A DNA stretch of 64,000 nucleotides from Micavibrio sp. UBA2400 (GTDB lineage: Bacteria; Pseudomonadota; Alphaproteobacteria; UBA2400): the NCBI GenBank assembly GCA_002343265.1, contig DDSC01000038.1:5454-69453 (forward strand). Direction: 5' to 3'. The notes beneath the pieces were generated by a model. That model did no database searches. It saw only the letters and a list, made by a program, of their open reading frames with translations, and had not been told where the DNA came from. A program made the translations under genes and the position numbers. Of this stretch, positions 13,624-38,840 are shown piece by piece (the first letter of the stretch is position 1; every line of letters begins with the position of its first letter).

Positions 13624-14091
13624 CTAGCGCCGCTTGGCCGGTGTGTTGACTTCTGTAATAGCAATGCCCCAGTCGTCAGTCAGGGCTTTCTGTCGGCTGC
13701 GGATCTTGTCGAGCTTGGCCTTATCACGGGCGGTAATAAATCCGACTACCATCAACGGTAGTACCTGCGTTAGCATCCAGCCCACACCAGCACCGGCCAG
13801 AATAAGTATCCATGAAAAGGGGGAGAACAGTAGGCTGATCGTGGTGGAGACGCTATTTCCTTTATCCCACAGTCGCATTAAGAGCGGCATCAGGGCCGCA
13901 AGATTGAAGGAGCCAACCGTGATGGCCGTCAGCTTACCTTTGGTGCTATCGGTCAGCCAGGCTACATAAGTCGGGATCAGGCCGGCCAAGATCAGGATGC
14001 TGGTGGGTGGAAAAAAAGCGCCGATGATGAGTACGCTCACCAGCCCAGCTGAGCCTTTTTTTCGAGGAGGTTTTGCTGCGGGCTCGGCCAT
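13624..14091 (-). CDS. Hypothetical polytopic membrane protein (about 4 TM), co-oriented partner of the pseudokinase gene
   Basis: 155 aa with four hydrophobic helices. It starts 3 nt after the stop of the upstream kinase-like gene, so they are probably an operon. Confidence 0.5.
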   Translation of the reverse strand: MAEPAAKPPRKKGSAGLVSVLIIGAFFPPTSILILAGLIPTYVAWLTDSTKGKLTAITVGSFNLAALMPLLMRLWDKGNSVSTTISLLFSPFSWILILAGAGVGWMLTQVLPLMVVGFITARDKAKLDKIRSRQKALTDDWGIAITEVNTPAKRR

Positions 14092-14093
14092 GT

Positions 14094-16103
14094 CTAGAAT
14101 AGCCTCATAAAAACAGTTGTTACGATGGCGGCAGCGGCGGCCATACCTCCAATAAAAGCGGTAATCTGCCGCCCCTGCAGCAATAAAGCTTTGTTCCGGG
14201 ATTCATTTGCGGTGCTGATCTCGCGCGAAAAATGCTCCAACTGCTGCCATTCCATCTGGGCCGCGTTAAACCCGTCTTCATCGGCTTTTTGCATGTTGCC
14301 ATCATCAATAATCGATAGCATCTGATCCAACTCGCCGCGTTTGGATAGCTTAGTGACGTCACGGATAACCTTTTCGCGCAGATTGCGATTGTGGTAGCGC
14401 TCCATTGATGGCTGCAGGAGACGCGCCAGCCATTCTGCCGTGCGTGGCATCGGTTCCGGATGAAATTTGCGCTGAACTTCTGCAAGGATGGAGAGAATGG
14501 CCACAGCCCGCTGGCCAGGCTGGCTATTCGCTGCTAGGAGCGGGAACAGGCGGTCGTTCATGCGCTTGTGATGACTCAGAATATACGCGGCAATATGGCG
14601 GTCCATCGGCTCACTGCGCGTATCGTTATCCTTGACGGTCTCAGCGTAGGCTTCAATAGCGATACATAAAGCCTTAAGTGAGAGCGGGAAATGTTTGGCG
14701 GTAAGGGGGCTAAGGCAGGGGCAGTCCGGATAGAGTTCATACACGACGCGCTCAACGCCAAAGCCATGCTGCGGCCGGTCGAGCAGCATACGAATACCTT
14801 CATATTGCTGCAAGAGTGACGCATGCTCAGCGCCGTAGTTGGACTGGGAGTTAGCCCAGTGAATAATGAACTGGGCGGCGATCAGGTCGGCGACATTACG
14901 GGGGGATTGTCCCTTGATCAGCGTGTCGGCCAGATAGCCACCAAGGCCAGCTGGGAGGGTAGATATGTCCCTGAAACGGATTGGGGCTGGCGGGTCAAGT
15001 GTTATGGCAACGCGGGTAACGGTACGCTCGGCTGGGCTGCCGCCACGTTGAGCAGCTCCCGCGGAGGAGATGGCTTCAACAATTTTTTCCGCTTTGGTTT
15101 CATCACCAAGAGAGCGACGAACCCAGCGGTCCAATGAGCCATCCTCAATACCACGCCCAGCCTGATCGACATTACGAGCCATGGCCTGTGCCAGCAGACG
15201 AACATTATTGTAGGTCTGGCCGGCAATTTCATAGCCACGTTGGGCCTTGGGGATTTGTGCTGCAGGTTTACTACCGGTTCGGCGACCACCCAGCCAGTGG
15301 GTGATATCATCAAGAGCCCAGCGTTGCGCCGGATCGTCGGACAAAAGGCCACGGAAGATTTCACTGTAGGCACTGGGGATTCGGGCTCCTCCGCTCAGTG
15401 CCATCAGGCTGCCTTTTTCAACTTTTGCTGTAATCAGCTCTTCGATCGGTAGATTAATAGCAGGAAGCTTGCCCAGAAGCACACTCAAGAGCGTTACACC
15501 CACGGCGTAGATATCATCACTGGCTGAGGCAATGCCTCGTGCGGCAGGAGCAGCCATCAGCCGTTCAATCGTACAAAAGGCCGGATGCTGGTATTTCCCG
15601 GGAATCGCGCTCAGATAATCGCCAAGCTGGATGCTGCCACTGGAGGCGTCACGCAGGAAGATATTGGTTGGATTGATGCGCCCATGATTGCAGCCGGACA
15701 GATAGATATCGCGAATTCCCTCGGCAAGAGACTCAACCATCTGTCGGAAGAAGAGTTCGTTATTGAGCGGAGCGCGATCCTCGGTCAGCGAGGGGATAAG
15801 TGCAGCACCGGTCGGCCGTTCGTAGAGAAGGACGGGGGTTTGCTGGCCAAAATCGGGCCAATAGGTAATATCAGCCTCAATAAAACGCAGCACAGATGCG
15901 CTATTGATTTTGAGGGCATCTCCCAAAACACTGAAGCGAGGCAACTCGCCCGGCTTGGCAACCAGCGCAAGCAGGTTCGTACTTCCGCGTGCCCCTTGCG
16001 CCATATAGGCCAAGGCACCCGGCGTATTGAGATCGCTCAGGGGATTGCCTGAGAAAATCTCATATTTTCCGGCACAGAGGGTAACGCGCTCGTTGCTGGC
16101 CAT
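14094..16103 (-). CDS. Hanks-type protein-kinase-fold protein with degenerate catalytic motifs (predicted pseudokinase), C-terminal TM anchor
   Basis: The N-terminal 250 aa align to the kinase subdomains. The Gly-loop/VAIK analogue is 'GALAYMA...LVAK'. The catalytic loop reads 'NHGRINPTNIFL' where HRDLKPxN is expected (Asp changed to Arg, Lys changed to Asn). 'LGDYLS' stands in for DFG. 'DIYAVGVTLLSVLLGKLP' matches subdomain IX. There is about 400 aa of unknown C-terminal region and a terminal TM helix 'ITAFIGGMAAAAAIVTTVFMRLF'. Confidence 0.55.
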   Translation of the reverse strand: MASNERVTLCAGKYEIFSGNPLSDLNTPGALAYMAQGARGSTNLLALVAKPGELPRFSVLGDALKINSASVLRFIEADITYWPDFGQQTPVLLYERPTGAALIPSLTEDRAPLNNELFFRQMVESLAEGIRDIYLSGCNHGRINPTNIFLRDASSGSIQLGDYLSAIPGKYQHPAFCTIERLMAAPAARGIASASDDIYAVGVTLLSVLLGKLPAINLPIEELITAKVEKGSLMALSGGARIPSAYSEIFRGLLSDDPAQRWALDDITHWLGGRRTGSKPAAQIPKAQRGYEIAGQTYNNVRLLAQAMARNVDQAGRGIEDGSLDRWVRRSLGDETKAEKIVEAISSAGAAQRGGSPAERTVTRVAITLDPPAPIRFRDISTLPAGLGGYLADTLIKGQSPRNVADLIAAQFIIHWANSQSNYGAEHASLLQQYEGIRMLLDRPQHGFGVERVVYELYPDCPCLSPLTAKHFPLSLKALCIAIEAYAETVKDNDTRSEPMDRHIAAYILSHHKRMNDRLFPLLAANSQPGQRAVAILSILAEVQRKFHPEPMPRTAEWLARLLQPSMERYHNRNLREKVIRDVTKLSKRGELDQMLSIIDDGNMQKADEDGFNAAQMEWQQLEHFSREISTANESRNKALLLQGRQITAFIGGMAAAAAIVTTVFMRLF

Positions 16104-19452: not shown

Positions 19453-19926
19453 ATGCGTTACGTTGTCCGAGTTCTGATTCTGGCCCTAATCGTCTTTGCC
19501 CAACCTGCGCAGGCTAGGCTGCCCGCCTGCACGTCTGCGGCGGAGCGCGACGCGATGGCCGTTCGGGCCTTGCAGTCCTTCTTTATGCTGGCTGGTGTTG
19601 CCTGTAATCAGGCCGATTCTTATAATCGCTACATGACACGTTATCAGGCGCAAGTGGCGGCTCATACCGAGCACCTCAAAGGCTATTTTACCCGCGTCTA
19701 TGGACGTAAGGGCGAGACTCACCTGAACGATTTTGTGACGAATTTAGCCAACGCCTGGTCACAAGTTCATCTCGATGGAATGAACACCTACTGCAAGGCA
19801 ACGTGGGATATATTGGTTCAGCTCGAAAAGATGCCAGCCGTTGATGATGCCAAAATGGTTCGTATTGCTCATACATTAGCGCGGCAAAAGCCCGTTGCAG
19901 CTGTCCTCTGTCAGAGCGATAAGTAG
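19453..19926 (+). CDS. Hypothetical secreted protein
   Basis: 157 aa with a signal peptide 'MRYVVRVLILALIVFAQPAQA', four Cys and an AGAGGA RBS. Confidence 0.45.
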   Translation: MRYVVRVLILALIVFAQPAQARLPACTSAAERDAMAVRALQSFFMLAGVACNQADSYNRYMTRYQAQVAAHTEHLKGYFTRVYGRKGETHLNDFVTNLANAWSQVHLDGMNTYCKATWDILVQLEKMPAVDDAKMVRIAHTLARQKPVAAVLCQSDK

Positions 19927-20093
19927 TATATTTCTTAACGCATCTTAAGAATTGAGTGCTCATAAAGGGATTGTATTGACTCAATTGCAACTATCTTGCA
20001 CCGTTTCTTAATTAACAAAGCACTATTCTAAACCAGAATGGCGCAAATGCGGGATTTACAGTAAGGTAACCTTGCTGTGACGGGAGACGCTCA

Positions 20094-22451
20094 ATGATGA
20101 AACTTATTTGCCGCAACACAGGTCTAATCAAGCGCGACCAAGGCGGAGCCATCATGCTGATATTTGCGCTTTTGCTCGTGCCGATGTTGGGGTTGGTCGG
20201 TCTCGCTGTCGATACCGCTCGTGCGTATGCGGTTAAGCAGCGTTTGCAGGAAGCTATTGACTCTGCTTCGCTTGTGGCCGCTAAGAATTTTTCTGCCCCT
20301 AATCGCGATCAATTGATCAAAGACTATTTTGAAGCGAATTGGCGCACCGGCTTTATGAACACGGCAATGCCAACCCTGACCTTTTCAGTTAATCAGGCTC
20401 AGCGCACGGTTACAGTCAATGCGGTGGCCGTAATGCCAACGATTTTTGCGAAATTTATTAATTACCCCACCGTTACAGTGGGGACGCTAACCTCAGCCGT
20501 TAGTTCGCTGACTTATCTTGAGGTCGCGCTTGCGCTAGATAACACTGCGTCTATGCGAAATGAAGTTCTGCCCGGCGTTCGGCGCGTCGATGCGATGAAA
20601 ACGGCGGCAAAAAACTTTATTGATACCCTGTTTACGGTCAATGGCGTGCCGCAGGATACTATCCCTAATATGTGGGTTAGCGTAATTCCCTTCACAAGTA
20701 TGGTCAATGTCGGTGCCCAGCATACCAATTTTCTTAAAGCCAATACTTTAAATGGCATCTTGTGGGACTATCCGCGCAATTCAACTGCGCAGAATAGTTG
20801 GCGTGGATGTGTGTTCGAGCGCTCTTTCTATGAAAATGGTGCATATGCCGGACGCGATCTGACTGATCATTCTCCCGCTGTTGAGGCTTTTTTCCCTTAC
20901 CATGTTGTTCCGGCAGGGTTGCAGGCGTTTAGTCTGTGCGCTGCACCGCCACCATGCCCACCTGGCCAGAAAAAATGCTCTACAGCCCCAAATCTTGGTT
21001 GTGTTCCGCAGCCTTTTGTATGCCCCCCGGCTCCTCCATCGCCGCCACCTGCACCACCGCAGCCACCGCAACCGCCACCGCCGCCGCCGCCGGTGCCCCC
21101 GTGCACGGTTGATGGCTTCCCCTGCAAAGTAGCGCCACCGTCTTTGAAAGGTGTTGGTCTTGAGGCGCCATCTTCCAATCTTCACAATGTTGCCGCTTGT
21201 CGAAGTGCTCCGCCAGCTGCGGGGGTGGCTACATATATCGACTCCTACGCTATGAGTCCGATATCGCTTGTTTTCCAAACGCCAACCGGGATCAAAGTCT
21301 ATTATCCATCACCGGATGGGATGACTCCGATGGCCTTCAATAAGGCTTTTCCGGGCTACGATGATATGTCCGTCAGCGGGCCAAGGAATGTAAGCGGAGA
21401 TAGTATCTGTTGTCATGGTTCCAACGGTGGTGACCGTCTACAAAATATAGTAAGTTGGACAGCGACTGGACGTTGGATTGAGCCGTGGCCGACCAGCGGG
21501 ACGCCTAAGATTGGTGGTTGGGGTAACTCAGGCTGTGGCCTGCCCCTGTTGCCGTTGCAGGATAACCGCATCAAAATCAAAGCCAAGATTGATGAGATGG
21601 ATATTCCTCCACTCAAGTTTCCAGCCCTATCGGCTGGGCACCCGAGTAATCGCCCGGATCTTGGTTATGTCGGAACCTTGATCAATCAGGGACTGATCTG
21701 GGCGTGGCGGTCCTTATCGCCAAACTGGCAGGGCTATTGGAAGGAACCCAGCGGTACACCTTTGCCGAATAACCTTCCGCTGTCGTACACAACCGACGGA
21801 AGCTCGAAGGCCGTCGTTGTGATGACGGATGGGCTGAACTTTTTAGAGGACCCGTTCGCTCGTATTTCCCAGAATGGGGCTCTCTATTTTGGCCAGCTGA
21901 CATTAACTCTTTCGGCCGCAAGCCCCAACCTGAGTCCACATAATGCAGTTATCGATAATAATTATCTGACCGACTCTTCGGCCTACGGCACCTTAGGACG
22001 TGACATGACTCTCGCTCCGGGGGGGCAGTTCCGCGCCTACAACTTCTGTCGCGTCCGCCAGATGGCAAATCTTGAGCCGCATCTCTCGCCAGCACTCTGG
22101 GGCTGTAAAGAGTATGACGGCATGATCCGCAATGCGGCAGGGACGGTTTTGCGTTCCGGGGTTGGCACGTGGGGGCCTTATGATGTAACGTCAGCTCTGA
22201 CCGGGCCGTATTATACCGAGCTGCAAAGCCGACTGCTGAAGACCTGCCAGAACATGGTTGATAAAGGCATTCGGATCTACTTCATCCTGTTCGATATCGA
22301 TGATAATCCGCAGAAGGCTTCGGCTATGGCCGCGTTCAATACCTGTGTATCAAATCTGGGTGGCGTGTATGACGCCAGCAGTCCTGCACAGCTGAACAAC
22401 GCTTTCCAGAACATTGCGATCAGCCTGCGCTCGCTCCGGCTAAAACAATAA
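20094..22451 (+). CDS. TadG-like (TadE/TadG N-terminal motif) von Willebrand factor A domain protein with large Pro/Cys-rich insertion
   Basis: The N-terminal pseudopilin-like segment 'GGAIMLIFALLLVPMLGLVGLAVDTARAY' matches the TadE/G family. The vWA MIDAS motif 'LALDNTASM' lies near aa 147 and the matching 'VVVMTDG' motif near aa 590. Between them is a low-complexity tract 'PPPCPPGQKKC...PPAPPSPPPAPPQPPQPPPPPPPVPPC'. Confidence 0.6.
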   Translation: MMKLICRNTGLIKRDQGGAIMLIFALLLVPMLGLVGLAVDTARAYAVKQRLQEAIDSASLVAAKNFSAPNRDQLIKDYFEANWRTGFMNTAMPTLTFSVNQAQRTVTVNAVAVMPTIFAKFINYPTVTVGTLTSAVSSLTYLEVALALDNTASMRNEVLPGVRRVDAMKTAAKNFIDTLFTVNGVPQDTIPNMWVSVIPFTSMVNVGAQHTNFLKANTLNGILWDYPRNSTAQNSWRGCVFERSFYENGAYAGRDLTDHSPAVEAFFPYHVVPAGLQAFSLCAAPPPCPPGQKKCSTAPNLGCVPQPFVCPPAPPSPPPAPPQPPQPPPPPPPVPPCTVDGFPCKVAPPSLKGVGLEAPSSNLHNVAACRSAPPAAGVATYIDSYAMSPISLVFQTPTGIKVYYPSPDGMTPMAFNKAFPGYDDMSVSGPRNVSGDSICCHGSNGGDRLQNIVSWTATGRWIEPWPTSGTPKIGGWGNSGCGLPLLPLQDNRIKIKAKIDEMDIPPLKFPALSAGHPSNRPDLGYVGTLINQGLIWAWRSLSPNWQGYWKEPSGTPLPNNLPLSYTTDGSSKAVVVMTDGLNFLEDPFARISQNGALYFGQLTLTLSAASPNLSPHNAVIDNNYLTDSSAYGTLGRDMTLAPGGQFRAYNFCRVRQMANLEPHLSPALWGCKEYDGMIRNAAGTVLRSGVGTWGPYDVTSALTGPYYTELQSRLLKTCQNMVDKGIRIYFILFDIDDNPQKASAMAAFNTCVSNLGGVYDASSPAQLNNAFQNIAISLRSLRLKQ

Positions 22452-30280: not shown

Positions 30281-33200
30281 ATGACCGAACATCCGGACAC
30301 CCAGACCCTGCATCGCGAGGGTACAACTGAGACGGGGGCTGTTCCGCCCAAGACAGGAGCGCACCCTGTACGGGCAAGTGTCGGAACATCAACCGTTGGT
30401 CGAGCTGGGGCGCCGGTACGAACCTCAGCGCCTGCGCCAGTTCACGCGCTACCCTCGCTTCCGGCTTGGGCGATTGTCGCGTCGGTTGTCTGGGTGGCGG
30501 TTGCCGTTGGTTATCTGTTTGCCGTTGGCGGCTGGTCCTCATCACCGGGGGCAATCGGCGCCATCATTGCCGGTCTGGCCGCGCCACTGGTGGTGGTGTG
30601 GCTGGTGGCGTTCATGCAGCAGCGCGCGCTTGAAGTTGATATCATAACCGGCCCGATCCGCCGTCAGTTGACAGCTCTGCTCTCTCCGGGAGCAGCTGCT
30701 GATGTGCGTATTCGCCGCATTACCGAGGCTTTAGCCGAACAGACCGAAATGTTGCGCAATGCCGCTAACGTGGCGCTTGAAGACTCTAGCGCAGCCATGA
30801 CGGCGATCACTCGTCAAAGTGGTGAGTTGCGCCGGTTGTCCGCTGAAGCCATGCTCGATATCGGTAAGGTCGGTAAAACAGCAGAGCAGACATTAACGCA
30901 TTTGCGCGAAACACTTAGTCATCTTGGCACTCAAACGGGAGATGAACGAGAAAAAGCGCTCAAGATGGTCGCTGAGTTGGAGAAGAATTTTACCAGCGTA
31001 CTGGGGCAACTTGATAAAGTTTCACAGCATTATGAGGGGCGTCTGGGCAAACTGAATGAAACCTCTCTTCAGCTGGAGGATCGCACCAAGTCCTTGATCG
31101 GCCTGACCGATGGTCTTAATGCCAAGGTTGACGATTCCGCTGGTGAAGTGATGGGTGATATTGCCCGCCTTGAATCCGCTGTAGCAGAACTTAGTCAGCG
31201 CAGTGCGGCCATTGCGCACCTGCTAGAACGCCCCGTTGAATCACTGGAACGGGCTGCTGGTCAGCTTGATGGGCAGCTGCGTCAGTCGCATAGCCTGCTG
31301 CAAAGTGCGACCAATAATCTTGAAAAAATTGGTGATGTTGTTATGGGGCGCGCTAACGCACTGGTTGCGAACTTGTCGGATCGCCTCAGCAGCATGGAAC
31401 TCGTTGGTGCTAAGCTAGTTTCTCTAGGTGTAGCGGCGCAAAATGATACAGGCCGGTATGTCGGACAGATCGAAGAAGTGGCGGAGCGGATCCGGGACTA
31501 TGGCGCGGAAAGTGAGCAACGCCTTCGGTCTGTAATTTCCGAACTGACAGCCGCCACTGAGGCTGGGTTAAGTCGTGGCGATGCTGTTATTGACCGATTG
31601 CAGGATGGCACCAATGCTCTCAAGCTGGCGGTTAGTGGGCATGATGATCGCTTTGCCGCGCTGGCCGATGATATCGAAGAGCGCACACAACGACTGCGTG
31701 AGTTAGGGCGCGATGCACGTGGACAGCTGGAAGACGTCCAGCTCTCGCTGTCTTCGGCCCAGGATAGTGTTGAAAGTCAACTTGAACGCCTGAATCATGT
31801 CAGTGACAAGCTGAGTACCGAGCTGCAGCGCAGCGCCAGCAGTGCCTCCACGCTCTCGGAAGCGACCCAGTTGGCGGGCGAGCGGGCACAGGCACTCTTC
31901 AACCTGAATGACAAGACCAGTGATGTCATGAACATGATTGCCGCGCGTTTGGTCGAGCAGCGTGAGGAGGTTGAGGCGCTGGCAGGAAATCTGACAACGC
32001 AGATCGAATCCATGCAGGCGGCACTGGTTAGCCAGCGTATGGAGCTGCAGCGCACCGGGCAGGATGCCAGCCGTCAAAGTGAAGTGGTCCAAGCGGCTCT
32101 GCGCGAGCAGGTCGGGGCGATCGCTGCCGCGGGCATGGATGTTGCTGCCCGTATTGATGTGCTGCAGCAGCGGGTGCGCAACGAAGTGGGCTCGTTGACA
32201 GAACTGGGAGATGTGCTGGAAGGCAAACTGGCAGCGCTGGCGCAGACAGCCCAGCAACAGGCGGGAACTTTTACCACGGCTAATGCGGAGATGAGCCGTG
32301 AGCAGAAGGCTTTGCAGGCGCTGACCGACCGCTCGCGACAGGATTTGACCGGTCTTCTCACGCATCTGAGTGAAACTCGTGCTGCTGCTGAAACGGCACT
32401 CGGAGGAGTAAACGAGCAATTAGTACAGCTTTCGGCCCAGCTTTCGGCTGCCGAGGATGATCTGCATCGTATGGCAGGTGATGTGAGCACCGAGCAGCTC
32501 CGCTTGCGCGATCAAGGTCAGGGTATGAATGAGGCTTTGGCCGCTGCCTTGCAGCGACTGGAGACACTCGACAAATCTCTGCACACCACAGGTGAGCATG
32601 TGGCTCATCAGGGCGATAAGGCCGAGGCACAGCTTGCGCGCGTCCGCACGGAACTGAATAGCAGCCGAGAGCTTTTGGTCGCTGAGAATAGCGAGGTTCA
32701 ATCTCTTCTGACCCAGCTTTATGCGCAAATGCGAGACGGGCAGGAGCAACTGGAGCAAGTAAAAGTAGAAGCGACTGAGGCCAGCCGTCTGTGGGCACTG
32801 GCGCAAAGCCAGTTGCAGCAGAGCCAGTCGGCACTCACGCAGAGCCGTGAGCAGGCTCAGCAGGATATTCGTGCAGTTGACGCCAGCGTCCACGAGGCCA
32901 CACGCTCACTGACGCAGGCTCGTGCCGAAGCGGAATTGGCGCACGAAACTCTACACCAGCAAAGTGAACGGGCGCAGGCACGCATCCATGAGCTTGAGCA
33001 GGATATGGCTTCGTTGCAGGATGTAATTGCTCGCCTCACCGAGCGGTCGGATTTACTCTCGCGGTCGTTGGCTGATCAGGCCGCCCAAGCCGAGATCGCG
33101 GGGGGTCGTCTGCAAAGCGCCACCCGGATTGCCGATCAGTCGGCTGCTGTGTTGGTCGAGCGAAATAAAGACCTGCAAGCGAGTGCCCACGCACAGGAGC

Positions 33201-36200
33201 AAGCCCTTGTTAGTTTGCGCGCCGAGTTGGATCGGGCGAGCGGCGAGCTGGCACAGCGAGGGGAGCTGAGCCAAGAGCGCCTCGAAAGTGTCGTCGCCGC
33301 CATTCTCTCCGCCTCGAGTAACTTGCAAGAACAGACGCGCCAGAGCAGTGCGGCATTGGCACAGGGCGAGCATAACTTTATTGCCGTGCGCAGTGCCTTG
33401 GCGACACACACGGCATCCGTATCGGACGACCTGAGCCGCCTTGGCAGTCAGGTCTCAGATTTGCAAGCTGACCTGACCGCCACGGGACAGCAAGCTCAAT
33501 CGGTCGGAATGCAATTGGCGCACCAGGCTGAGCAGAGTGAGGCGGTCCGTGCCGGTATCGAATCTGTCGCTGCCCGTGCTGATAAGGCTGCTCTGTTGTT
33601 GACAGAACGGCTAAGTGAAATGGATATGGCCTCGACCAGTCAGATGGCCGCGTTTGTACGATTAACCAGTCAACTGGAGCAACTTGGTCAGCAACTTGAG
33701 TCCAGCAGTGACTCAAGTCAGTCGCATCTTCAGGTCTTACTGGCCCAGCTAGCCCAAACAAGCGCAGCGCTCACTGCCAGCAGCCAACAAAATGGCGAGC
33801 TGGTGACTTTGGCTCAGGATCGCCTGCAGGAAAGCGGCTTGGTCCTCGACCGGCAGGCCCAGCAGGTACAGACATATTTGGCAGCTCTGGAAACCCGCAG
33901 CCAGCAGGTTGAAGCGAGTTTGCGCCAGGCCCGTTCACAGGTTGGTGAGCTGACCAGCCAGCTCGAAGCGCAACAGTCGCGTAGTGAGCAGCTGGGCGAA
34001 AGCACAGCCGCTTTGACGCAGAATAGCATATCTGCCCTGAGTGATCTTGAGCAGCGCTATGAACAGATGGAAGCTGCGGCCCGCAGTCAACAAGATGAAG
34101 TACAGCGTCTGACTTTGCAGCTTGAAGATGCCACAGCGTCGTTGCAAGCTGATGCCAGCCGCTCTGCCAAGGCGTTTGAGACCCTGCTGTCAGGTATCGA
34201 GACGATAGCCAACGCGGCTGACCATTCGTTCACATCTGTGTTACAGCAAATGGAGAAGGCTGGCTCGACCCTGCAGCAGCAAGGAACAGTCAGTCGGGAT
34301 GAATTGACCAATCTGCAACTCCAGATTGTTCACGCCACGCAAGAGCTGGCCGAGCAGGTTGAGAGTGCTCAGCAGTCAATCCGCAAGGTGCTCGGCGAAA
34401 ATGGTGCCCGTTTCATGCAGGCATTGCAAGCCGCGCAGGAGGGCTTGAGCGGCCAGCTGGAAAATTCCCGCCAACAGGTCAGCGTATTCCTGACTGAGGC
34501 CAGCAGCCAGTTCTCGTCTACTGCCATGCTAACAGAGCAGAGTTTGGCTACTCGTCTTGGCGATCTCGACTCGATCAAGAGCAAGCTTGAGGCTGTCAGC
34601 CTGAGCGCCGCGCACGGTGTGGATGCGCTGACCAGCAGCAGTAACCGTGCTAGCGAGCAGATGGCTAGCCAGCACGAACACGTTCAGGCTCTGGCCGTTC
34701 AGTCCAGCCAACTGGCAAGCCAGTTGCTAGATGCAATGCAGCAGCTACGCAGCATTGGCGGTGAGCATACTAGCGGACTGGAGCAATTGTCCGGCCAGCT
34801 CAGCGAGCAGTTGGAACAGCTTCGACTAAGTGGCCAGCAGGCGCGCAGTGAGCAAGAACAGCTCTTGGCGCGGACCAGTCAGGCACAGGCTACCGTGAAG
34901 GAAATGTCCGAGCAGATCAGCACGGCCCGCTCTTTGGTTGATGCCGCAGCCGACTATACGGCTGCTCGTCTGGCCGATGTTTCAGCAGACTTTGCCAATC
35001 GTGTGCGCGAAGGCGAGGGCTTGGTTACTACCGCGACAACCCGTTTGCGCGAAGTCGAGCAGCGCATGGCTGAGACCGGCTCCCTCATGGAGCAGCGCCA
35101 AACCGAGTTGCTGGCGTCAACACGTACGATCATGCAGCAGCTGGAGGTGCTCGACAGTGGGTTCCGCACAGCGTTGGGTAACAGCAGCGCGGTTCAGTCG
35201 CAGTTGTCAGCACAAGCGGAGCATAATCAGCGACTGCTCACAGGGTTGACCCAGTTGAGCGAGATGGGCACAGCCTCACTGGAGGAACAGACTCAGCGTC
35301 TGGCACGTCTAGCCCAGCAGGCTGCCAGTGATACCCAGCGTATGCTGGACATGGGTGACCGGATTGAAGGCCAGCAGGCTAGTGTTCGCCAGGAGGCGCA
35401 AGCCGCTGTTACGGTCTTGCAGGCAGTACAAGCCCAGTTACAGCGTGCTGGCCAAGAGGGGAGCGAACAGCTGTCGGCGACCGAGGCGCAACTCAGCGCA
35501 GCTCTGGTCGGCATGATGCAACGTGTACAGGAGCTGGCTGCATCAAATACCGGACTGACCAATCAATTGCGGACATCTATGGGCCAGATGGGGCAAGCCT
35601 TGGTCCTGCTTCAGGACAGCGGGCGCAAGCTGGGAGCTGAGTTGAGTGCGACCGGTGACCAGTTGCAAGGTAAGGCTGCCGGGTTAGTGGTGAGCGGGCA
35701 ACAGCTTGACCGCGAGCTTAAGTCTCGCCTTGAAACCATGCAGGAATCGCAGCGGCGTATTGATGGCATTTATACGCACCTCAGTCAGCGTCTGGCCGAG
35801 CTGGATAGTCGCACCTCACACTATCTGATCGATCTCGATCAGCGTAGTGAATCGTCATTCGCGCGTCTTAATGATGGCGTTAGCAATCTGGAAAAGCTAC
35901 CGGATCGCGTCCAAGAGGCGGAAAGTCTCTTGAGCGCCCAAGTGGATATTGCTCGCCGCGAAATTCTAAGGCTACGTAGCGATCTGGTGGAGCTAGGGCA
36001 GACTGTACTCGCGCAGAGCGATCAGGCAGGAGCTAGTACTGCTCAGGTGTTGGCAAATCTGCAGCAGATGAGTGCGCATAGCCGTGCCATGGCTGAGCAG
36101 ATCGAGGTATCGAGCCAAGGCATGGCTACAGCAGCGCAGTCGGCCTGGCAGACAATTCACGCTGCGGTTAGTGAAAGCACCTCCGGTGTGGCGGGGCTTA

Positions 36201-37741
36201 CAGACCATCTGAAGGGGGCAGAAAACCGGACACAATCGCTGGTCGAACTGGCGCGGAGTGGTGTGGATGGGCTGTTGGATCGTGTCAACGACATGGGTAG
36301 CTTGCTGGATAGCGCTCTGAGCAAGGCGAATGGTGCCTATGCGACTCTGGCTGCAGGCGGGTTGCAGCAGATTGAAACGCTAAGCCAAACTCTGGCGGAT
36401 AACGCCGCGCGGCTCGATCACAGCACAGCGCAAGCGCACGCGCGAATTCAGGAAGCTGATGTCTTGGTGCAGCAGCATCAATCAGCCGTGCAGGGTGTTG
36501 CTGAAGCTATGCTTCCGCAGTTGACCAATGTTCGGCAGGAGTTAGAGCAGATTCGGGAAGGTTTGAGCGGCCTTGATAGTCGGTTGCATTCGCTACCTGC
36601 GTCCTTGGGCGGCCAGCAGCAGCAGCTGGAAAGCTTTACCTCTGCAATCGATCGCACGTTGAATCAAGTTGCGGCGCTGCAGATGCTCTCACGTGATATG
36701 GCGCAAGAGCATTTCGCGCTGGCTGAACAACTGCAATCGCATGAAACAGCACTGACGACTGGCCTCGGCGAGCTTGAACAAAGCCTCACCAAGTTGGATG
36801 CCCAAATTCACTCGGGCGTCGTTAGTCATATGTTGAGCGCGGCAACGCAAGCTCAGGCTGTGGAGCGGACATTGGCGCAACTTCTCAATCAGTCGGCTGG
36901 GCTGGATCAGGCGATTGCCAGCATTCGTCAATCGGTGCTGCGCGAAACACAGACGCTTGAGCAGGCAAAAGATACAGTGGGCAGTGTCGCGCAAAAGGCT
37001 GTGAGTGATCTCCAGGCTGCTGGTTCAGCTCTTGCGGAGAGTTATGGCCAGTTACAGCGTGGCACCCAGCTCTCGCAAACAGGGTTGTTACAGACTCAGG
37101 AAGAAAGCCAGCGCTTGGCTGTGCGTCTTGAGCAGATGCGTACACTGCTCAAAGGACTGACGAGTGCCATCTCGAATGATCTCACCGAATGGCAGACCGA
37201 AATGCGCAAACAACTGACCGGCGTAGCAGCTGACCTTGCTAGTCCGGCCGTACGGGCGCAGTTGCCGCTTCTCTCACCTTCGCCTACGCCTGTGCGTGCC
37301 ACTCTTCCGGCAGCCGGATCCAGCTCGACGCAATTGACAACGGAGGCCTTACAGGCAGTGGCTATTGATCTGTACCGTCTGCTGCGCAATGAGATGCCTG
37401 ATCTTCTTAAGTCCTTACCCACTCCGGCGGCCCGCCGTGCACCTATGGGACCGGGGGAAGCACGGGCATACACCCAGGCCTTACTCGAGGTAACTGGCGC
37501 GCCGTTTGCCACGGCAGCAAAGCAGCTTTATGCAAACAACGCTGAGTTCCGCTTGTATGTTGATCGCTATTTAACCCGCTTTGAGGCACATTACGACGTT
37601 TTGGCCCGTAACCCGGCAGGCCTAGACGAAGCGAAGGCCTATCGGGCCTCAGATGTCGGACGCCTCTATAGCCTGTTCAGTGGAGCGATTGAGCGTCGCG
37701 GGAATGTAAGCGCAGGGCAGCCGGAGAGCAGCCGTACATGA
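30281..37741 (+). CDS. Giant (2486 aa) inner-membrane-anchored coiled-coil protein: two N-terminal TM helices followed by about 2300 aa of Q/A/L/E/S-rich predicted coiled coil and a short non-repetitive C-terminal domain
   Basis: A single uninterrupted 7.46-kb ORF; every antisense ORF across it is short. The TM hairpin is 'LPAWAIVASVVWVAVAVGYLFAVGG' then 'AIGAIIAGLAAPLVVVWLVAFMQ'. The rest is a heptad-like pattern rich in Gln, Ala, Leu, Glu and Ser with no enzymatic motif. There is no MCP signalling-domain motif. The stop overlaps the next ATG as ATGA. Confidence 0.8.
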   Translation: MTEHPDTQTLHREGTTETGAVPPKTGAHPVRASVGTSTVGRAGAPVRTSAPAPVHALPSLPAWAIVASVVWVAVAVGYLFAVGGWSSSPGAIGAIIAGLAAPLVVVWLVAFMQQRALEVDIITGPIRRQLTALLSPGAAADVRIRRITEALAEQTEMLRNAANVALEDSSAAMTAITRQSGELRRLSAEAMLDIGKVGKTAEQTLTHLRETLSHLGTQTGDEREKALKMVAELEKNFTSVLGQLDKVSQHYEGRLGKLNETSLQLEDRTKSLIGLTDGLNAKVDDSAGEVMGDIARLESAVAELSQRSAAIAHLLERPVESLERAAGQLDGQLRQSHSLLQSATNNLEKIGDVVMGRANALVANLSDRLSSMELVGAKLVSLGVAAQNDTGRYVGQIEEVAERIRDYGAESEQRLRSVISELTAATEAGLSRGDAVIDRLQDGTNALKLAVSGHDDRFAALADDIEERTQRLRELGRDARGQLEDVQLSLSSAQDSVESQLERLNHVSDKLSTELQRSASSASTLSEATQLAGERAQALFNLNDKTSDVMNMIAARLVEQREEVEALAGNLTTQIESMQAALVSQRMELQRTGQDASRQSEVVQAALREQVGAIAAAGMDVAARIDVLQQRVRNEVGSLTELGDVLEGKLAALAQTAQQQAGTFTTANAEMSREQKALQALTDRSRQDLTGLLTHLSETRAAAETALGGVNEQLVQLSAQLSAAEDDLHRMAGDVSTEQLRLRDQGQGMNEALAAALQRLETLDKSLHTTGEHVAHQGDKAEAQLARVRTELNSSRELLVAENSEVQSLLTQLYAQMRDGQEQLEQVKVEATEASRLWALAQSQLQQSQSALTQSREQAQQDIRAVDASVHEATRSLTQARAEAELAHETLHQQSERAQARIHELEQDMASLQDVIARLTERSDLLSRSLADQAAQAEIAGGRLQSATRIADQSAAVLVERNKDLQASAHAQEQALVSLRAELDRASGELAQRGELSQERLESVVAAILSASSNLQEQTRQSSAALAQGEHNFIAVRSALATHTASVSDDLSRLGSQVSDLQADLTATGQQAQSVGMQLAHQAEQSEAVRAGIESVAARADKAALLLTERLSEMDMASTSQMAAFVRLTSQLEQLGQQLESSSDSSQSHLQVLLAQLAQTSAALTASSQQNGELVTLAQDRLQESGLVLDRQAQQVQTYLAALETRSQQVEASLRQARSQVGELTSQLEAQQSRSEQLGESTAALTQNSISALSDLEQRYEQMEAAARSQQDEVQRLTLQLEDATASLQADASRSAKAFETLLSGIETIANAADHSFTSVLQQMEKAGSTLQQQGTVSRDELTNLQLQIVHATQELAEQVESAQQSIRKVLGENGARFMQALQAAQEGLSGQLENSRQQVSVFLTEASSQFSSTAMLTEQSLATRLGDLDSIKSKLEAVSLSAAHGVDALTSSSNRASEQMASQHEHVQALAVQSSQLASQLLDAMQQLRSIGGEHTSGLEQLSGQLSEQLEQLRLSGQQARSEQEQLLARTSQAQATVKEMSEQISTARSLVDAAADYTAARLADVSADFANRVREGEGLVTTATTRLREVEQRMAETGSLMEQRQTELLASTRTIMQQLEVLDSGFRTALGNSSAVQSQLSAQAEHNQRLLTGLTQLSEMGTASLEEQTQRLARLAQQAASDTQRMLDMGDRIEGQQASVRQEAQAAVTVLQAVQAQLQRAGQEGSEQLSATEAQLSAALVGMMQRVQELAASNTGLTNQLRTSMGQMGQALVLLQDSGRKLGAELSATGDQLQGKAAGLVVSGQQLDRELKSRLETMQESQRRIDGIYTHLSQRLAELDSRTSHYLIDLDQRSESSFARLNDGVSNLEKLPDRVQEAESLLSAQVDIARREILRLRSDLVELGQTVLAQSDQAGASTAQVLANLQQMSAHSRAMAEQIEVSSQGMATAAQSAWQTIHAAVSESTSGVAGLTDHLKGAENRTQSLVELARSGVDGLLDRVNDMGSLLDSALSKANGAYATLAAGGLQQIETLSQTLADNAARLDHSTAQAHARIQEADVLVQQHQSAVQGVAEAMLPQLTNVRQELEQIREGLSGLDSRLHSLPASLGGQQQQLESFTSAIDRTLNQVAALQMLSRDMAQEHFALAEQLQSHETALTTGLGELEQSLTKLDAQIHSGVVSHMLSAATQAQAVERTLAQLLNQSAGLDQAIASIRQSVLRETQTLEQAKDTVGSVAQKAVSDLQAAGSALAESYGQLQRGTQLSQTGLLQTQEESQRLAVRLEQMRTLLKGLTSAISNDLTEWQTEMRKQLTGVAADLASPAVRAQLPLLSPSPTPVRATLPAAGSSSTQLTTEALQAVAIDLYRLLRNEMPDLLKSLPTPAARRAPMGPGEARAYTQALLEVTGAPFATAAKQLYANNAEFRLYVDRYLTRFEAHYDVLARNPAGLDEAKAYRASDVGRLYSLFSGAIERRGNVSAGQPESSRT

Positions 37742-38814
37742 TGCATTGTCTTTACCTGACATTGGTACTTGTACTGCTGGCTCCCCCTGTTTGGGCGTGT
37801 AGTTGTCCGGATATCCCGCTCGCGGACAAGGTCAAGGCAGCGAGTTTCATATTTCAAGGTACTGTTGTTTATCCGCGACCGGATATGCCGCCTGAACAGA
37901 CATCGTTTCGGATTGATGCCCATCTGAAAGGGCGGGACGGTGCGTCGGCGAATATTCTTCGGCTATCTGTACATTCGCCCCCGGCTTGCGCCGCGACGTT
38001 CGAGCTGGGCAAGACGTATCTTGTCCTAGCCGAGGGGACTTATGAAAGCGGCTATACAACGGATGCCTGTCATAGTTTTCCAGCACAGATAACAGATGAC
38101 CCGCGAGCGCTTGAGGTGCGTGATTTACGCCTCAAGACAGGTCAATCCATTCTTCACGGAAATCAGATCGAAGTTCCTCAGTCCCGCCTCACACTTGAAA
38201 AAATCCGGACACAGGCGAAGACCTTCTACTTGCTTGATGATAACGAATTGGCTTTACGTCTTTACGTCACCGCTGCGGCGCGGTCCCACAACTCGCCTGT
38301 TGATTTATTGGGTCAGGGTCATGCTTACTTGCGTCTTATGATGGCAGATTTGGCGTTGCAGAGATTTGATGATGTGCTGGAAAAAGATAGCCAGCGGGCG
38401 CAGGCGTGGTCTGGACGCTATCAGGCACTCGCGCTGCTTGGTCGTTGGTCGGAGATCCCTGAGAAAGCGAATCTTTCCGGCCTGTGGCTTCGGTATGCCC
38501 GCATACCAGTAGTTCCAGTTGCTGCTGATTTCTCGACAGTCTGGTGGAGAGAAATTGATGCTGCCGGGTTGCACTTTAAGGATGTTTCGTTCCGCGGTGC
38601 GACGTTATCCGATGTAAATTTCTCTAAAAGCAACTTAGAGAATGTGGACTTCACGGAGGCTGTTTTGCACCGCGTCGATTTTTCAGGAGCTAAGCTCAGC
38701 GGTGTAAAATTGCCAAGCAATCTGAATACAATTATCTGGGACGAGACGACGCAGTGGCCAAAGGGCTTCGACCCGGCTATTCTGGCCATTAGCAGGCCGA
38801 GTCAGGCTAAGTAG
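37738..38814 (+). CDS. Secreted protein with an N-terminal TIMP/NTR-like domain, a central helical region and C-terminal pentapeptide repeats
   Basis: The signal peptide 'MMHCLYLTLVLVLLAPPVWA' is followed by a mature N-terminus 'CSCPDIPLADKVKAASFIFQGTVV'. Further Cys residues sit at mature positions about 64 ('PPACAATF') and about 91 ('TTDACHSFPA'), reproducing the TIMP N-domain C1-C70/C3-C99 disulfide spacing and the 'TCSFVAP' motif. C-terminal tandem pentapeptide repeats are 'LHFKDVSFRGATLSDVNFSKSNLENVDFTEAVLHRVDFSGAKLSGVKL'. Confidence 0.6.
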   Translation: MMHCLYLTLVLVLLAPPVWACSCPDIPLADKVKAASFIFQGTVVYPRPDMPPEQTSFRIDAHLKGRDGASANILRLSVHSPPACAATFELGKTYLVLAEGTYESGYTTDACHSFPAQITDDPRALEVRDLRLKTGQSILHGNQIEVPQSRLTLEKIRTQAKTFYLLDDNELALRLYVTAAARSHNSPVDLLGQGHAYLRLMMADLALQRFDDVLEKDSQRAQAWSGRYQALALLGRWSEIPEKANLSGLWLRYARIPVVPVAADFSTVWWREIDAAGLHFKDVSFRGATLSDVNFSKSNLENVDFTEAVLHRVDFSGAKLSGVKLPSNLNTIIWDETTQWPKGFDPAILAISRPSQAK

Positions 38815-38840
38815 CTCTTTGACGTCTGGAGTGCCCACTC

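What the first reader, a model, noticed from the sequence alone, without database searches (positions are those of the whole stretch)
20094..22451. Stand-alone TadG-like vWA protein with a roughly 400-aa insertion containing a Pro/Cys-rich tract
It has the N-terminal TadE/TadG pseudopilin-like hydrophobic segment. The MIDAS motif DxTxS (LALDNTASM) and the 'VVVMTDG' motif are separated by about 440 residues, against about 100-150 in a normal vWA domain. The insert contains 'PPPCPPGQKKCSTAPNLGCVPQPFVCPPAPPSPPPAPPQPPQPPPPPPPVPPCTVDGFPC'. No other tad/cpa pilus genes are nearby. The polyproline plus spaced Cys pattern looks like an extended adhesive or cell-wall-spanning stalk.
Basis: partly seen in the sequence, partly recalled or inferred. 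Interest (0 to 1): 0.55.

Follow-up and report, generated by a model that had tools for sequence, protein, structure and literature searches.

The report
Orphan TadG/CpaL-type pilus adhesin, expanded
This is a real gene for a TadG/CpaL-type pilus-tip-like adhesin whose metal-binding vWA domain is split by a large, lineage-specific excursion carrying a variable proline/cysteine-rich cassette; it is an unusual variant of a known kind of protein, not a new kind.

Summary
ORF 20094-22451 (+) encodes 785 aa with a significant Tad N-terminal domain, an intact MIDAS (D149/T151/S153...T528...D579, 430 residues apart) and the quoted Pro/Cys tract (residues 285-344). The identical protein occurs in four independent assemblies, so it is not an artefact.

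A split vWA domain and a position outside the pilus cluster are already described for Caulobacter CpaL (MIDAS D160...D515). Canonical TadG-vWA relatives already have a median spacing of 218 residues, not 100-150.

What is unusual is a rare long-form subfamily: about 25 clusters in 5.8 billion proteins, and 2 of about 185,000 species genomes, labelled Micavibrio or Bdellovibrionales. In it, the excursion between strands beta2 and beta3 has a conserved cysteine frame around a hypervariable cassette. The cassette is poly-Pro of 10-45 aa here and in close relatives, and five Cys-rich repeats in others. The model gives pLDDT below 50 for the tract, and its length varies, which argues against a fixed envelope-spanning stalk.

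Best reading: a Tad-pilus tip or priming subunit and adhesin with a variable specificity or spacer loop. Whether the host has Tad machinery, or is a predator, was not testable.

The parts
20082..20087 (+). Shine-Dalgarno-like GGGAGA, 6 nt upstream of the ATG
   Evidence: Read directly from the sequence. A weak sigma-70-like site lies at 20012-20039, but such sites are no more frequent here than in shuffled sequence.
20094..22451 (+). Whole gene: 785-aa TadG/CpaL-class pilin-like vWA protein, including the stop codon
   Evidence: The identical protein occurs in four independent assemblies.
20094..20147 (+). Residues 1-18: short positively charged leader ending in GG, the putative class-III (prepilin-type) leader with G18 at position -1
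   Evidence: G18 is conserved in 23/25 sequences (Ala in the other 2) and F24 (+6) in 21/25. This fits the G/A-X4-F/E site described for CpaL. Cleavage itself is inferred, not shown.
20148..20285 (+). Residues 19-64: hydrophobic alpha1 helix, the Tad (PF13400) domain
   Evidence: Pfam E=4.7e-12. Hydropathy peaks over residues 16-40. The model shows a helix at 16-64 with pLDDT about 77-90.
20286..20507 (+). Residues 65-138: beta-sheet of the pilin-like module
   Evidence: The model shows strands 94-100, 105-115 and 126-136 with pLDDT 81-93. Foldseek matches the PilB minor pilin 7b7p at E=1.6e-4.
20508..20693 (+). Residues 139-200: vWA segment 1 (beta1-alpha1-beta2) with MIDAS D149-x-T151-x-S153
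   Evidence: D149, T151 and S153 are invariant in 25/25 sequences. Pfam VWA_2 covers residues 145-208. The profile matches the Mfa5 vWA domain.
20694..20936 (+). Residues 201-281: conserved base of arm 1, including WRGCVFER (236-243) and SFY...PYHV
   Evidence: W236 and C239 are conserved in at least 90% of the 42-sequence alignment, which includes the short forms. Mean identity is 49-60%.
20937..21125 (+). Residues 282-344: hypervariable cassette bounded by the conserved C282 and C337/C344. In this protein it is the Pro/Cys-rich tract, with C288, C295, C303 and C310 specific to this lineage.
   Evidence: The alignment has 39% gaps here, and the flanking cysteines are present in 24/25 sequences. 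Cassette content differs between members. pLDDT is below 50. The coding DNA has only degenerate CCN repeats.
21126..21458 (+). Residues 345-455: distal part of arm 1. It is a poorly conserved linker (345-384) followed by a small beta unit (about 385-455) ending in the CC439/440 pair.
   Evidence: Mean identity is 16-25%. pLDDT is 25-73, with strands at 390-395, 401-405 and 448-454. There are no homologues outside the family.
21459..21542 (+). Residues 456-483: conserved return of arm 1 (WT..GRWIxPWP...GGWGNSGCG), including C481
   Evidence: Mean identity is 69%, the highest of any region. C481 is present in 25/25 sequences and in at least 90% when short forms are included.
21543..21845 (+). 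Residues 484-584: vWA segment 2 (beta3, alpha2, alpha3, beta4) with MIDAS T528 and D579
   Evidence: T528 and D579 are invariant in 25/25 and in the 42-sequence alignment. pLDDT is 90-97.
21846..22193 (+). Residues 585-700: arm 2, a second excursion after beta4 with the conserved C652 and C671
   Evidence: It is about 100 aa longer than in the short forms. Mean identity is 31% and pLDDT is 53-81.
22194..22448 (+). Residues 701-785: vWA segment 3 (C-terminal helices and strands) with the invariant C718 and C751. There is no LPXTG motif.
   Evidence: pLDDT is 86-97. The segment aligns to the C-terminal half of the Mfa5 vWA domain. The C-terminus reads ...LRSLRLKQ.

Best explanation
The gene encodes a member of the TadG/CpaL class of large 'minor-pilin-like' proteins of Tad (Flp, type IVc) pili. 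These have an N-terminal prepilin-type leader, a hydrophobic alpha1 helix and a small beta-sheet (the pilin module), fused to a MIDAS-containing vWA domain.

Proposed mechanism, by analogy with CpaL, TadG and KilN; none of these steps is shown here:
1. The protein inserts into the inner membrane through alpha1.
2. It is probably cleaved after G18 by the Tad prepilin peptidase.
3. It nucleates pilus assembly and ends up at the pilus tip.
4. There the MIDAS metal site binds an acidic ligand on a target surface.

What distinguishes this protein is that the two excursions ('arms') that leave the vWA fold are greatly enlarged. Arm 1 runs between beta2 and beta3; arm 2 follows beta4. Arm 1 consists of a conserved cysteine frame, presumably disulfide-bonded, that holds a hypervariable cassette. 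In this protein the cassette is a tract of about 60 residues rich in Pro and Cys, most likely an extended, semi-rigid loop or spacer rather than a folded domain. It would project the distal beta unit of the arm, or tune what the tip can reach or bind.
For: Shown here:
- Tad PF13400 matches above the curated cutoff.
- All five MIDAS residues are invariant in 25/25 family members.
- The family profile scores canonical TadG proteins that carry Pfam VWA domains at E=1e-77 to 1e-18.
- The profile matches solved vWA tip proteins across both halves of the split domain: Mfa5 at 6.8e-10 and the PilB minor pilin at 1.7e-4, plus RrgA and GBS104.
- The AlphaFold2 model (pTM 0.72) is confident for the helix-plus-sheet pilin module and the vWA core.
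- Its best PDB fold matches are pilus tip adhesins: PitA at 9.5e-6 and PilB at 1.6e-4, then the weaker matches Mfa5, SpaC and GBS104 at E=2.5e-3 to 6e-2.
- G at -1 occurs in 23/25 sequences and an aromatic residue at +6 in 21/25.
- The cassette site is hypervariable while its flanking cysteines and return segment are conserved.
- The insert has no homologues outside the family among 1.84 billion representative proteins.

From the literature:
- CpaL has the same layout: pilin module, then a vWA domain split at 203/384 by a beta-rich insert, MIDAS D160...D515, and a gene outside the main pilus cluster. It affects piliation and surface sensing (PMC11870444).
- TadG/KilN-type large minor pilins form the backbone of Tad pilus tips. 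They carry variable distal modules and many predicted disulfides (PMC12075869).
Against: - No Tad machinery, Flp pilin or TadE/F gene lies within the 64-kb window.
- None lies within 10 kb of the gene in any of six distinct long-form contexts, whereas 42 of 78 other (mostly short-form) loci have a TadE-like neighbour (Fisher p=0.026). The long forms may therefore act without the usual minor-pilin partners.
- Whether the host genome has a Tad system is unknown.
- Position +5 is hydrophobic, not Glu, and cleavage is untested.
- Pfam vWA models do not reach their cutoffs on the single sequence.
- The cassette and much of arm 1 are modelled with low confidence, so any statement about their shape is inference.
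- Pilus-tip localisation is itself only modelled, not demonstrated, for CpaL.
Confidence: 0.6

Rival explanations
1. It is a stand-alone, membrane-anchored surface or periplasmic vWA adhesin or scaffold that is never incorporated into a pilus. The Tad-type N-terminus would serve only as a signal-anchor, and the long arms would reach across the periplasm or contact envelope components.
For: - The long-form genes are consistently orphaned: 0 of 6 contexts have TadE-like or tad neighbours, against 42 of 78 other loci (contexts).
- There is no Glu at +5.
- The role of the archetype TadG is itself unsettled. The CpaL paper cites it as a constituent of pilus fibre preparations.
Against: - The pilin-like helix-plus-sheet module and the G(-1)/F(+6) signature are conserved across the family. 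That conservation would be unnecessary for a simple anchor.
- CpaL is also encoded away from the pilus cluster, yet it affects piliation.
- In one relative the gene follows three large genes with the prepilin N-terminal methylation motif, 48 nt away on the same strand.
Confidence: 0.25
2. One reading: the polyproline and spaced-Cys tract is an extended adhesive or cell-wall/envelope-spanning stalk of defined length.
For: - The tract is extremely Pro-rich; 21 of the 26 residues between C310 and C337 are Pro.
- It is predicted to be non-globular, with pLDDT below 50.
- A polyproline-II rod of this length would span roughly 8 nm (my estimate at about 3.1 A per residue).
Against: - Tract length is not conserved. 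Pro-rich spans range from about 10 to 45 residues, and P0005-P0009, P0018 and P0024 have none.
- In P0005-P0009 the site holds about 230 aa of Cys-rich repeats instead.
- The tract lies within a domain excursion whose two ends return to the same vWA fold, and it is bracketed by conserved cysteines. It therefore behaves as a loop, not a linear connector.
- The host is a diderm alphaproteobacterium with no thick wall to span.
Confidence: 0.07
3. It is an artefact: a chimeric or mis-assembled ORF, a pseudogene, or low-complexity DNA translated by chance.
For: The Pro-rich tract is low-complexity sequence, and the single-sequence Pfam vWA hit is below threshold.
Against: - The identical 785-aa product occurs in four independent assemblies.
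- Full-length homologues have 36-58% identity with E-values down to 6e-251.
- Conserved motifs lie on both sides of the tract, in frame.
- The tract uses mixed Pro codons.
Confidence: 0.01

Closest known systems
CpaL (CCNA_0199) of Caulobacter crescentus, the TadG-type minor-pilin-like protein of Tad pili (PMC11870444)
   Same: - N-terminal leader with a G/A-X4-F/E-type site.
- Pilin-like helix plus beta-sheet of about 120 aa.
- A single vWA domain split after its first ~55 residues (beta1-alpha1-beta2) by a large non-vWA insert.
- A complete MIDAS (DxTxS, T, D).
- A gene located outside the main pilus cluster.
   Different: - CpaL's insert is about 180 aa, predicted as two six-stranded beta-barrels. 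Here arm 1 is about 280 aa, with a cysteine frame, a Pro/Cys-rich low-complexity cassette and only a small beta unit.
- This protein also has a second enlarged excursion of about 115 aa after beta4.
- MIDAS D-to-D spacing is 430 residues here against 355 in CpaL.
Canonical short TadG-vWA proteins of Alphaproteobacteria (435-660 aa; P0026-P0044 and loci L014-L091; COG4961 'Flp pilus assembly protein TadG')
   Same: They are homologous over the Tad module, all three vWA segments and the base of arm 1 (WxGCVxxR ... C..PL ... GT..GLxWxW). The family profile scores them at E=1e-77 to 1e-18.
   Different: - Their DxTxS-to-TDG spacing has a median of 218 residues, against 430 here.
- They have 4-8 cysteines, against 17 here.
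- Pfam VWA models detect them.
- 42 of 78 such loci sit next to a TadE-like gene, against none of the long forms.
KilN/TadG large minor pilins of the Myxococcus Kil Tad pilus 'Tips' (PMC12075869)
   Same: - A large pilin-like protein proposed as the backbone of a Tad pilus tip.
- A variable distal module thought to confer target specificity.
- Numerous predicted disulfides.
- Tip genes dispersed around the genome.
   Different: - The KilN distal domain has no PDB structural homologue and is not described as vWA/MIDAS.
- KilN is always encoded together with KilL and KilM partners.
- No sequence relationship to KilN was tested here.
vWA tip adhesins of other pili: PilB (S. sanguinis type IV pilus, 7b7p), RrgA, GBS104, SpaC and PitA (sortase pili), and Mfa5 (type V pili)
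   Same: They have a MIDAS vWA domain at a pilus tip. They are the best sequence-profile and fold matches. From published structures (my knowledge, not checked here), the sortase-pilus adhesins also carry two 'arms' inserted into the vWA fold.
   Different: - Their anchoring and assembly chemistry differs. This protein has no LPXTG sortase signal and no Mfa-type lipoprotein processing.
- Sequence identity is only 10-16%.
- Their arms are unrelated in sequence.

Membership tests
TadG/CpaL-class Tad minor-pilin-like vWA proteins | N-terminal Tad/TadE-G-like hydrophobic segment (Pfam PF13400) | tested here: met
   E=4.7e-12, 46.5 bits against a cutoff of 22.3, residues 18-64. The same domain is found in all long-form relatives scanned.
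TadG/CpaL-class Tad minor-pilin-like vWA proteins | Pilin-like fold: a long alpha1 helix followed by a small beta-sheet | tested here: met
   The AlphaFold2 model has a helix at 16-64 and strands at 94-100, 105-115 and 126-136, with pLDDT 77-93. Foldseek matches the PilB minor pilin at E=1.6e-4. This is a prediction only.
TadG/CpaL-class Tad minor-pilin-like vWA proteins | Prepilin-peptidase recognition site (a hydrophilic leader, then G/A-X4-F/E) and actual cleavage | tested here: inconclusive
   The motif is present...KRDQGG|AIMLIF, with G18 in 23/25 and F24 in 21/25 sequences. Cleavage itself cannot be tested with these tools.
TadG/CpaL-class Tad minor-pilin-like vWA proteins | vWA fold with a complete MIDAS (DxS/TxS/T, T, D) | tested here: met
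   D149, T151, S153, T528 and D579 are invariant in 25/25 sequences. The profile matches the Mfa5 vWA domain at E=6.8e-10 over both halves. The model is confident for the core.
TadG/CpaL-class Tad minor-pilin-like vWA proteins | vWA domain interrupted after beta2 by a non-vWA insert | tested here: met
   Strand 193-200 is followed by an excursion, and the fold resumes at strand 486-489. In CpaL the split is at residues 203/384.
TadG/CpaL-class Tad minor-pilin-like vWA proteins | A Tad/Cpa pilus machinery and an Flp pilin in the same genome | not testable with these tools
For a labelled relative's genus, Micavibrio ARL-13 has a highly expressed flp pilin gene (PMC3189940).
TadG/CpaL-class Tad minor-pilin-like vWA proteins | Incorporation into, or priming of, the Tad pilus | not testable with these tools
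   This needs an experiment.
Generic vWA domain (Pfam PF00092 / PF13519) | A score above the curated Pfam gathering threshold | tested here: not met
   VWA_2 scores 18.9 bits against a cutoff of 27 and covers only profile positions 2-53 of 107. PF00092 is not reported. The failure is explained by the split, since the fold and MIDAS are supported.
Sortase-assembled pilus tip adhesins (RrgA, SpaC, GBS104, PitA) | A C-terminal LPXTG sorting signal and Ig-like/CnaB stalk domains | tested here: not met
   The C-terminus is ...AISLRSLRLKQ with no LPXTG. There are no Cna or Ig domain hits in Pfam. The resemblance is limited to the vWA domain.
BatA/BatB-type membrane-anchored vWA proteins | An N-terminal transmembrane segment plus vWA, within a bat/MoxR operon | tested here: not met
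   BatB appears only as a weak match to the N-terminal vWA segment (E=7.8e-6). There are no MoxR or Bat neighbours. The N-terminus is Tad-type.
Anti-phage defence systems containing vWA proteins | A match to a PADLOC model | tested here: not met
   No PADLOC family matches at E<=0.01.

The most novel reading that the evidence does not exclude
The long-form family could be a lineage-specific tip adhesin of Micavibrio-like epibiotic predators. In that reading, the hypervariable cassette in arm 1 (poly-Pro, Cys-rich repeats or a lectin-like module, depending on the lineage) determines which prey surface the Tad pilus or cell pole latches onto. That would make it an alphaproteobacterial counterpart of the 'adaptable tips' of the Myxococcus Kil pilus, encoded as a single orphan gene.

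Supporting hints:
- The only taxonomically labelled full-length genomes carrying the long form are a Micavibrio sp. MAG and a 'Bdellovibrionales bacterium' MAG.
- Window GC is 54.6%, against 54.7% for M. aeruginosavorus ARL-13.
- The flp pilin of ARL-13 is among the most expressed attack-phase genes.

Against:
- The window's GyrA has no named Micavibrio hit among the 120 best listed hits, and its nearest named relatives are Rhodospirillales at 68-69%.
- Not all Micavibrionales are predators.
- Nothing functional was tested.
Probability: 0.15. Interest if true: 0.7.

Novelty: new variant of a known kind. Interest (0 to 1): 0.4.

Why it matters
TadG/CpaL-type proteins have only recently been recognised as probable tip and priming subunits of Tad pili, where they would set what the pilus binds or senses. 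This family shows that the beta2-beta3 excursion of their vWA domain can act as an insertion hot-spot. It accepts very different cassettes inside a conserved cysteine frame.

If the hosts are Micavibrio-like predators, the cassette is a candidate determinant of prey attachment, which is an open question for epibiotic predators. Even if they are not, the protein is a tractable natural example of modular engineering of a MIDAS adhesin. It also warns that Pfam vWA models miss such split domains: every long-form member is annotated with PF13400 only.

Tried and rejected
- **NCBIfam** on the protein and on relatives gave no family.
- **PADLOC** gave nothing for the protein.
- **Insert-only search** (residues 268-480) against 1.84 billion representative proteins returned family members only, plus poly-Pro and RTX-like repeat noise. 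The insert is therefore not a domain borrowed from elsewhere.
- **Cys-rich repeat cassette of P0009** against PDB sequences gave no hit.
- **Discoidin / F5-8-type-C idea** for the extra module in P0004 and P0011 stayed inconclusive. Pfam gave E=2.4e-4, 22 bits, below the 27.8 cutoff, and only for P0011. The profile search against the PDB found nothing. The AlphaFold2 model of P0011 has low confidence there. Foldseek returned no discoidin hit.
- **Metagenome scan** returned mostly short forms and no new close long-form member.
- **Organism identification** failed by three routes. Cluster names carried none. The closest GyrA homologues are unnamed, and named ones start at 69% in Rhodospirillales. 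Sample accessions are absent from the literature library.
- **Promoter and terminator scan** found nothing above the shuffled expectation.
- **My TadG-derived N-module profile** does not detect TadE genes; it missed the two in L093. I therefore redid neighbour detection with TadE queries.
- **A coordinate error of mine**: the minus-strand ORFs were passed with the stop-codon end trimmed on the wrong side. Each lost its first residue. The domain assignments are unaffected, but this caused the exact-sequence look-ups to fail.
Full report
**1. The observation**

ORF 20094-22451 (+) is real and encodes 785 aa. A GGGAGA Shine-Dalgarno-like element lies 6 nt upstream of the ATG.

- LALDNTASM at residues 146-154.
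- VVVMTDG at residues 574-580.
- The Pro/Cys tract PPPCPPGQKK...DGFPC at residues 285-344 (nt 20946-21125).

The first and last MIDAS aspartates (D149, D579) are 430 residues apart.

The tract is not an assembly artefact. Exactly the same 785-aa product is encoded on contigs from four independent assemblies (ENA, two JGI metagenomes, Logan). The tract is encoded by mixed CCN codons, with only 68-73% repeat matches. Conserved in-frame motifs lie on both sides of it.

**2. Domain identity**

Pfam gives a significant Tad (PF13400) hit at residues 18-64 (E=4.7e-12). The VWA_2 hit is sub-threshold: 18.9 bits against a cutoff of 27, covering only the first half of the model. NCBIfam and PADLOC give nothing.

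The vWA assignment nevertheless stands on four independent lines:
- **Homology.** The protein is homologous to shorter proteins in which Pfam does call PF00092/PF13519 and which sources name 'Flp pilus assembly protein TadG'.
- **Solved structures.** A 42-sequence profile matches solved vWA domains of pilus tip proteins across both halves of the split domain. Hits include Mfa5 at E=6.8e-10 and the S. sanguinis PilB minor pilin at 1.7e-4, plus RrgA, GBS104 and BatB.
- **Predicted structure.** The AlphaFold2 model (mean pLDDT 73, pTM 0.72) is confident for a 49-residue N-terminal helix, a small beta-sheet and a Rossmann-like vWA core. Its best PDB fold matches are PitA (9.5e-6) and PilB (1.6e-4), followed by the weaker matches Mfa5, SpaC and GBS104 at E=2.5e-3 to 6e-2. 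All are pilus tip adhesins.
- **MIDAS conservation.** All five MIDAS positions (D149, T151, S153, T528, D579) are invariant in 25 of 25 family members.

**3. Anatomy of the 'insert'**

Aligning long and short relatives shows two excursions from the vWA fold, not one 400-aa block.

*Arm 1 (residues 201-483)* leaves after strand beta2 (193-200) and returns at strand 486-489. It has five parts:
- Its base, WRGCVFER...SFY...PYHV, is shared even with 435-aa canonical TadG proteins. W236 and C239 are conserved in at least 90% of 42 sequences.
- Its return segment, WT..GRWIxPWP..GGWGNSGCG, has 69% mean identity, the most conserved stretch of the protein, although the short forms do not carry that motif. 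The cysteine C481 within it is conserved in at least 90% of the 42 sequences.
- Residues 282-344 form a cassette bounded by cysteines present in 24/25 sequences (C282, C337, C344). The alignment is 39% gaps here.
- Residues 345-384 are a poorly conserved linker (16% identity).
- Residues 385-455 form a small beta unit ending in a CC pair.

*Arm 2 (residues 585-700)* follows strand beta4 and is about 100 aa longer than in short forms.

The cassette is hypervariable in content:
- In P0001 and its closest relatives it holds poly-Pro runs of about 10 to 45 residues.
- In P0005-P0009 it holds about 230 aa made of roughly five 45-aa Cys-rich repeats (34 Cys in the insert). These have no Pfam or PDB match.
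- P0004 and P0011 additionally carry a beta-rich module of about 150 aa further along arm 1. It gives a sub-threshold F5/8-type-C signal (E=2.4e-4, 22 bits, cutoff 27.8). I could not confirm this structurally.

The four cysteines inside the window protein's cassette (C288, C295, C303, C310) are specific to this lineage. The model gives pLDDT below 50 for residues 283-384. A search with residues 268-480 alone against 1.84 billion representative proteins found only family members plus low-complexity noise. The insert is therefore family-specific, not a domain imported from elsewhere.

**4. How unusual is it?**

Among 71 TadG-vWA genes recovered from reference genomes, the DxTxS-to-TDG spacing has a median of 218 and a 90th percentile of 312. 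Only two genes exceed 400:
- L012, a 'Bdellovibrionales bacterium' MAG, at 465.
- L013, a Micavibrio sp. MAG, at 619.

The published archetype CpaL has its MIDAS spread over 355 residues because two beta-barrels are inserted at the same topological point.

The long-form family itself is rare. Two searches of 5.8 billion protein clusters found about 25 clusters. It appears in two of roughly 185,000 species-representative genomes.

**5. Genomic context**

The 64-kb window contains no tad, cpa, flp or tadE gene. This rests on:
- Pfam scans of about 45 ORFs.
- A Tad N-module profile and an Flp motif over 986 stop-to-stop segments.
- TadE phmmer and a TadE motif.

The gene sits among housekeeping genes: serA and serC upstream, and gltX convergent downstream.

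Orphan status is a family trait. None of six distinct long-form contexts has a tad or TadE-like neighbour within 10 kb. By contrast, 42 of 78 other (mostly short-form) loci do, and in 28 of these the TadE-like ORF lies within about 1.5 kb (Fisher p=0.026). The sample is small and TadE detection rested on two query sequences.

[quoted passage not shown] An orphan position therefore does not exclude a pilus role, but it keeps the non-pilus rival alive.

Two context details are worth recording:
- In L006 the family member follows, 48 nt downstream on the same strand, three tandem paralogues of 734-751 aa that carry the prepilin N-terminal methylation motif.
- In L012 the gene directly follows homologues of the window's 669-aa kinase-like gene and its 155-aa membrane-protein gene. 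In the window that pair lies 4 kb away on the other strand.

**6. Host**

The window's GyrA has unnamed MAG homologues at 75-93% identity. Its nearest named relatives are Rhodospirillales at 68-69%. Ros/MucR and other alphaproteobacterial markers are nearby. Window GC is 54.6%.

Micavibrio is phylogenomically an alphaproteobacterium, sister to Rhodospirillales, with 54.7% GC. NCBI nevertheless files it under Bdellovibrionales, which explains the MAG labels.

The link between this window and predatory Micavibrio-like bacteria is thus suggestive, not established.

**7. Mechanism**

I commit to the TadG/CpaL model. In it, the protein inserts into the membrane through alpha1 and is probably cleaved after G18. 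G at -1 occurs in 23/25 sequences and F at +6 in 21/25, which fits the G/A-X4-F/E site of CpaL. It then assembles at the start, and hence the tip, of an Flp pilus, and binds a ligand through the MIDAS metal site.

The enlarged arms, held by a conserved cysteine frame, would present a variable cassette. In this protein the cassette is best read as an extended Pro-rich loop or spacer.

What is shown: the domain identities, the conservation pattern, the variability and the context. What is inferred: processing, tip location, disulfide pairing and ligand binding.

The envelope-spanning stalk reading is disfavoured for three reasons. Tract length is not conserved. Other cassette types can replace it. 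It is also a loop within a domain.

**8. Verdict**

This is a genuine and somewhat unusual member of a known class: a new variant, not a new kind. Interest is moderate. It would rise substantially if the family proved to be a prey-attachment determinant of epibiotic predators.

Noticed in passing
window 30281-41766 (+): A 2486-aa ORF (30281-37741) has no Pfam hit and only far-sub-threshold SMC/Rad50-like coiled-coil matches in NCBIfam. It is followed on the same strand, with overlapping stops and starts, by a pentapeptide-repeat protein, an HlyD-type membrane-fusion protein, a MacB/FtsX permease and an ABC ATPase. It looks like a giant coiled-coil protein coupled to a MacAB-like exporter.
   Followed up: partly
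window 13624-16103 (-); L012 7277-9844 (+): This is a two-gene unit. The first gene encodes a 669-aa protein with a weak Ser/Thr-kinase-like domain (Pfam Pkinase 25.8 bits, below cutoff; weak PADLOC MkoA / PD-T4-6 / MAD6 kinase matches) and a hydrophobic C-terminus. The second encodes a 155-aa protein with several hydrophobic segments. In L012 the homologous pair (49% and 39% identity) sits directly upstream of the long-form TadG-like gene on the same strand. In the window it lies 4 kb away on the other strand. The significance is unknown.
   Followed up: partly
L006 3251-9952 (+): Three tandem paralogues of 751, 735 and 734 aa (45-49% identical) carry a prepilin N-terminal methylation motif (GFSLLE; Pfam N_methyl at about 20-22 bits) and Gly/Asn-rich repeats. 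They lie immediately upstream of family member P0002, on the same strand with a 48-nt gap. They are unusually large type-IV-pilin-like proteins.
   Followed up: partly
proteins P0005-P0009 (e.g. L005/L013 10001-12976), arm-1 cassette: The cassette holds about five tandem Cys-rich repeats of roughly 45 aa (pattern ...C.VNG.CG....G.C.SGT...DN..TAC.TTRTW.C.G..GG...SC...). There are 34 cysteines in the insert and no Pfam or PDB sequence match.
   Followed up: partly
L048 549-9668; L079 8765-13341; also L014, L017, L073, L084, L086, L089: Some alphaproteobacterial genomes carry tandem arrays of two to five TadG-vWA paralogues. This suggests diversification of these proteins by local duplication.
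   Followed up: no
window 19453-19926 (+): The 157-aa upstream neighbour has a signal-peptide-like N-terminus (MRYVVRVLILALIVFAQPAQA) and no Pfam family. It is 168 nt from the TadG-like gene on the same strand. It was seen next to the gene only in contigs of the same genome.
   Followed up: partly
L119 1293-3404 (+): A distant TadG-vWA protein from a metagenome (25% identity over the N-terminal part, 704 aa as a stop-to-stop segment) also has an expanded DxTxS-to-TDG spacing of 410 residues and 11 cysteines. Enlargement of this region has therefore happened more than once.
   Followed up: no
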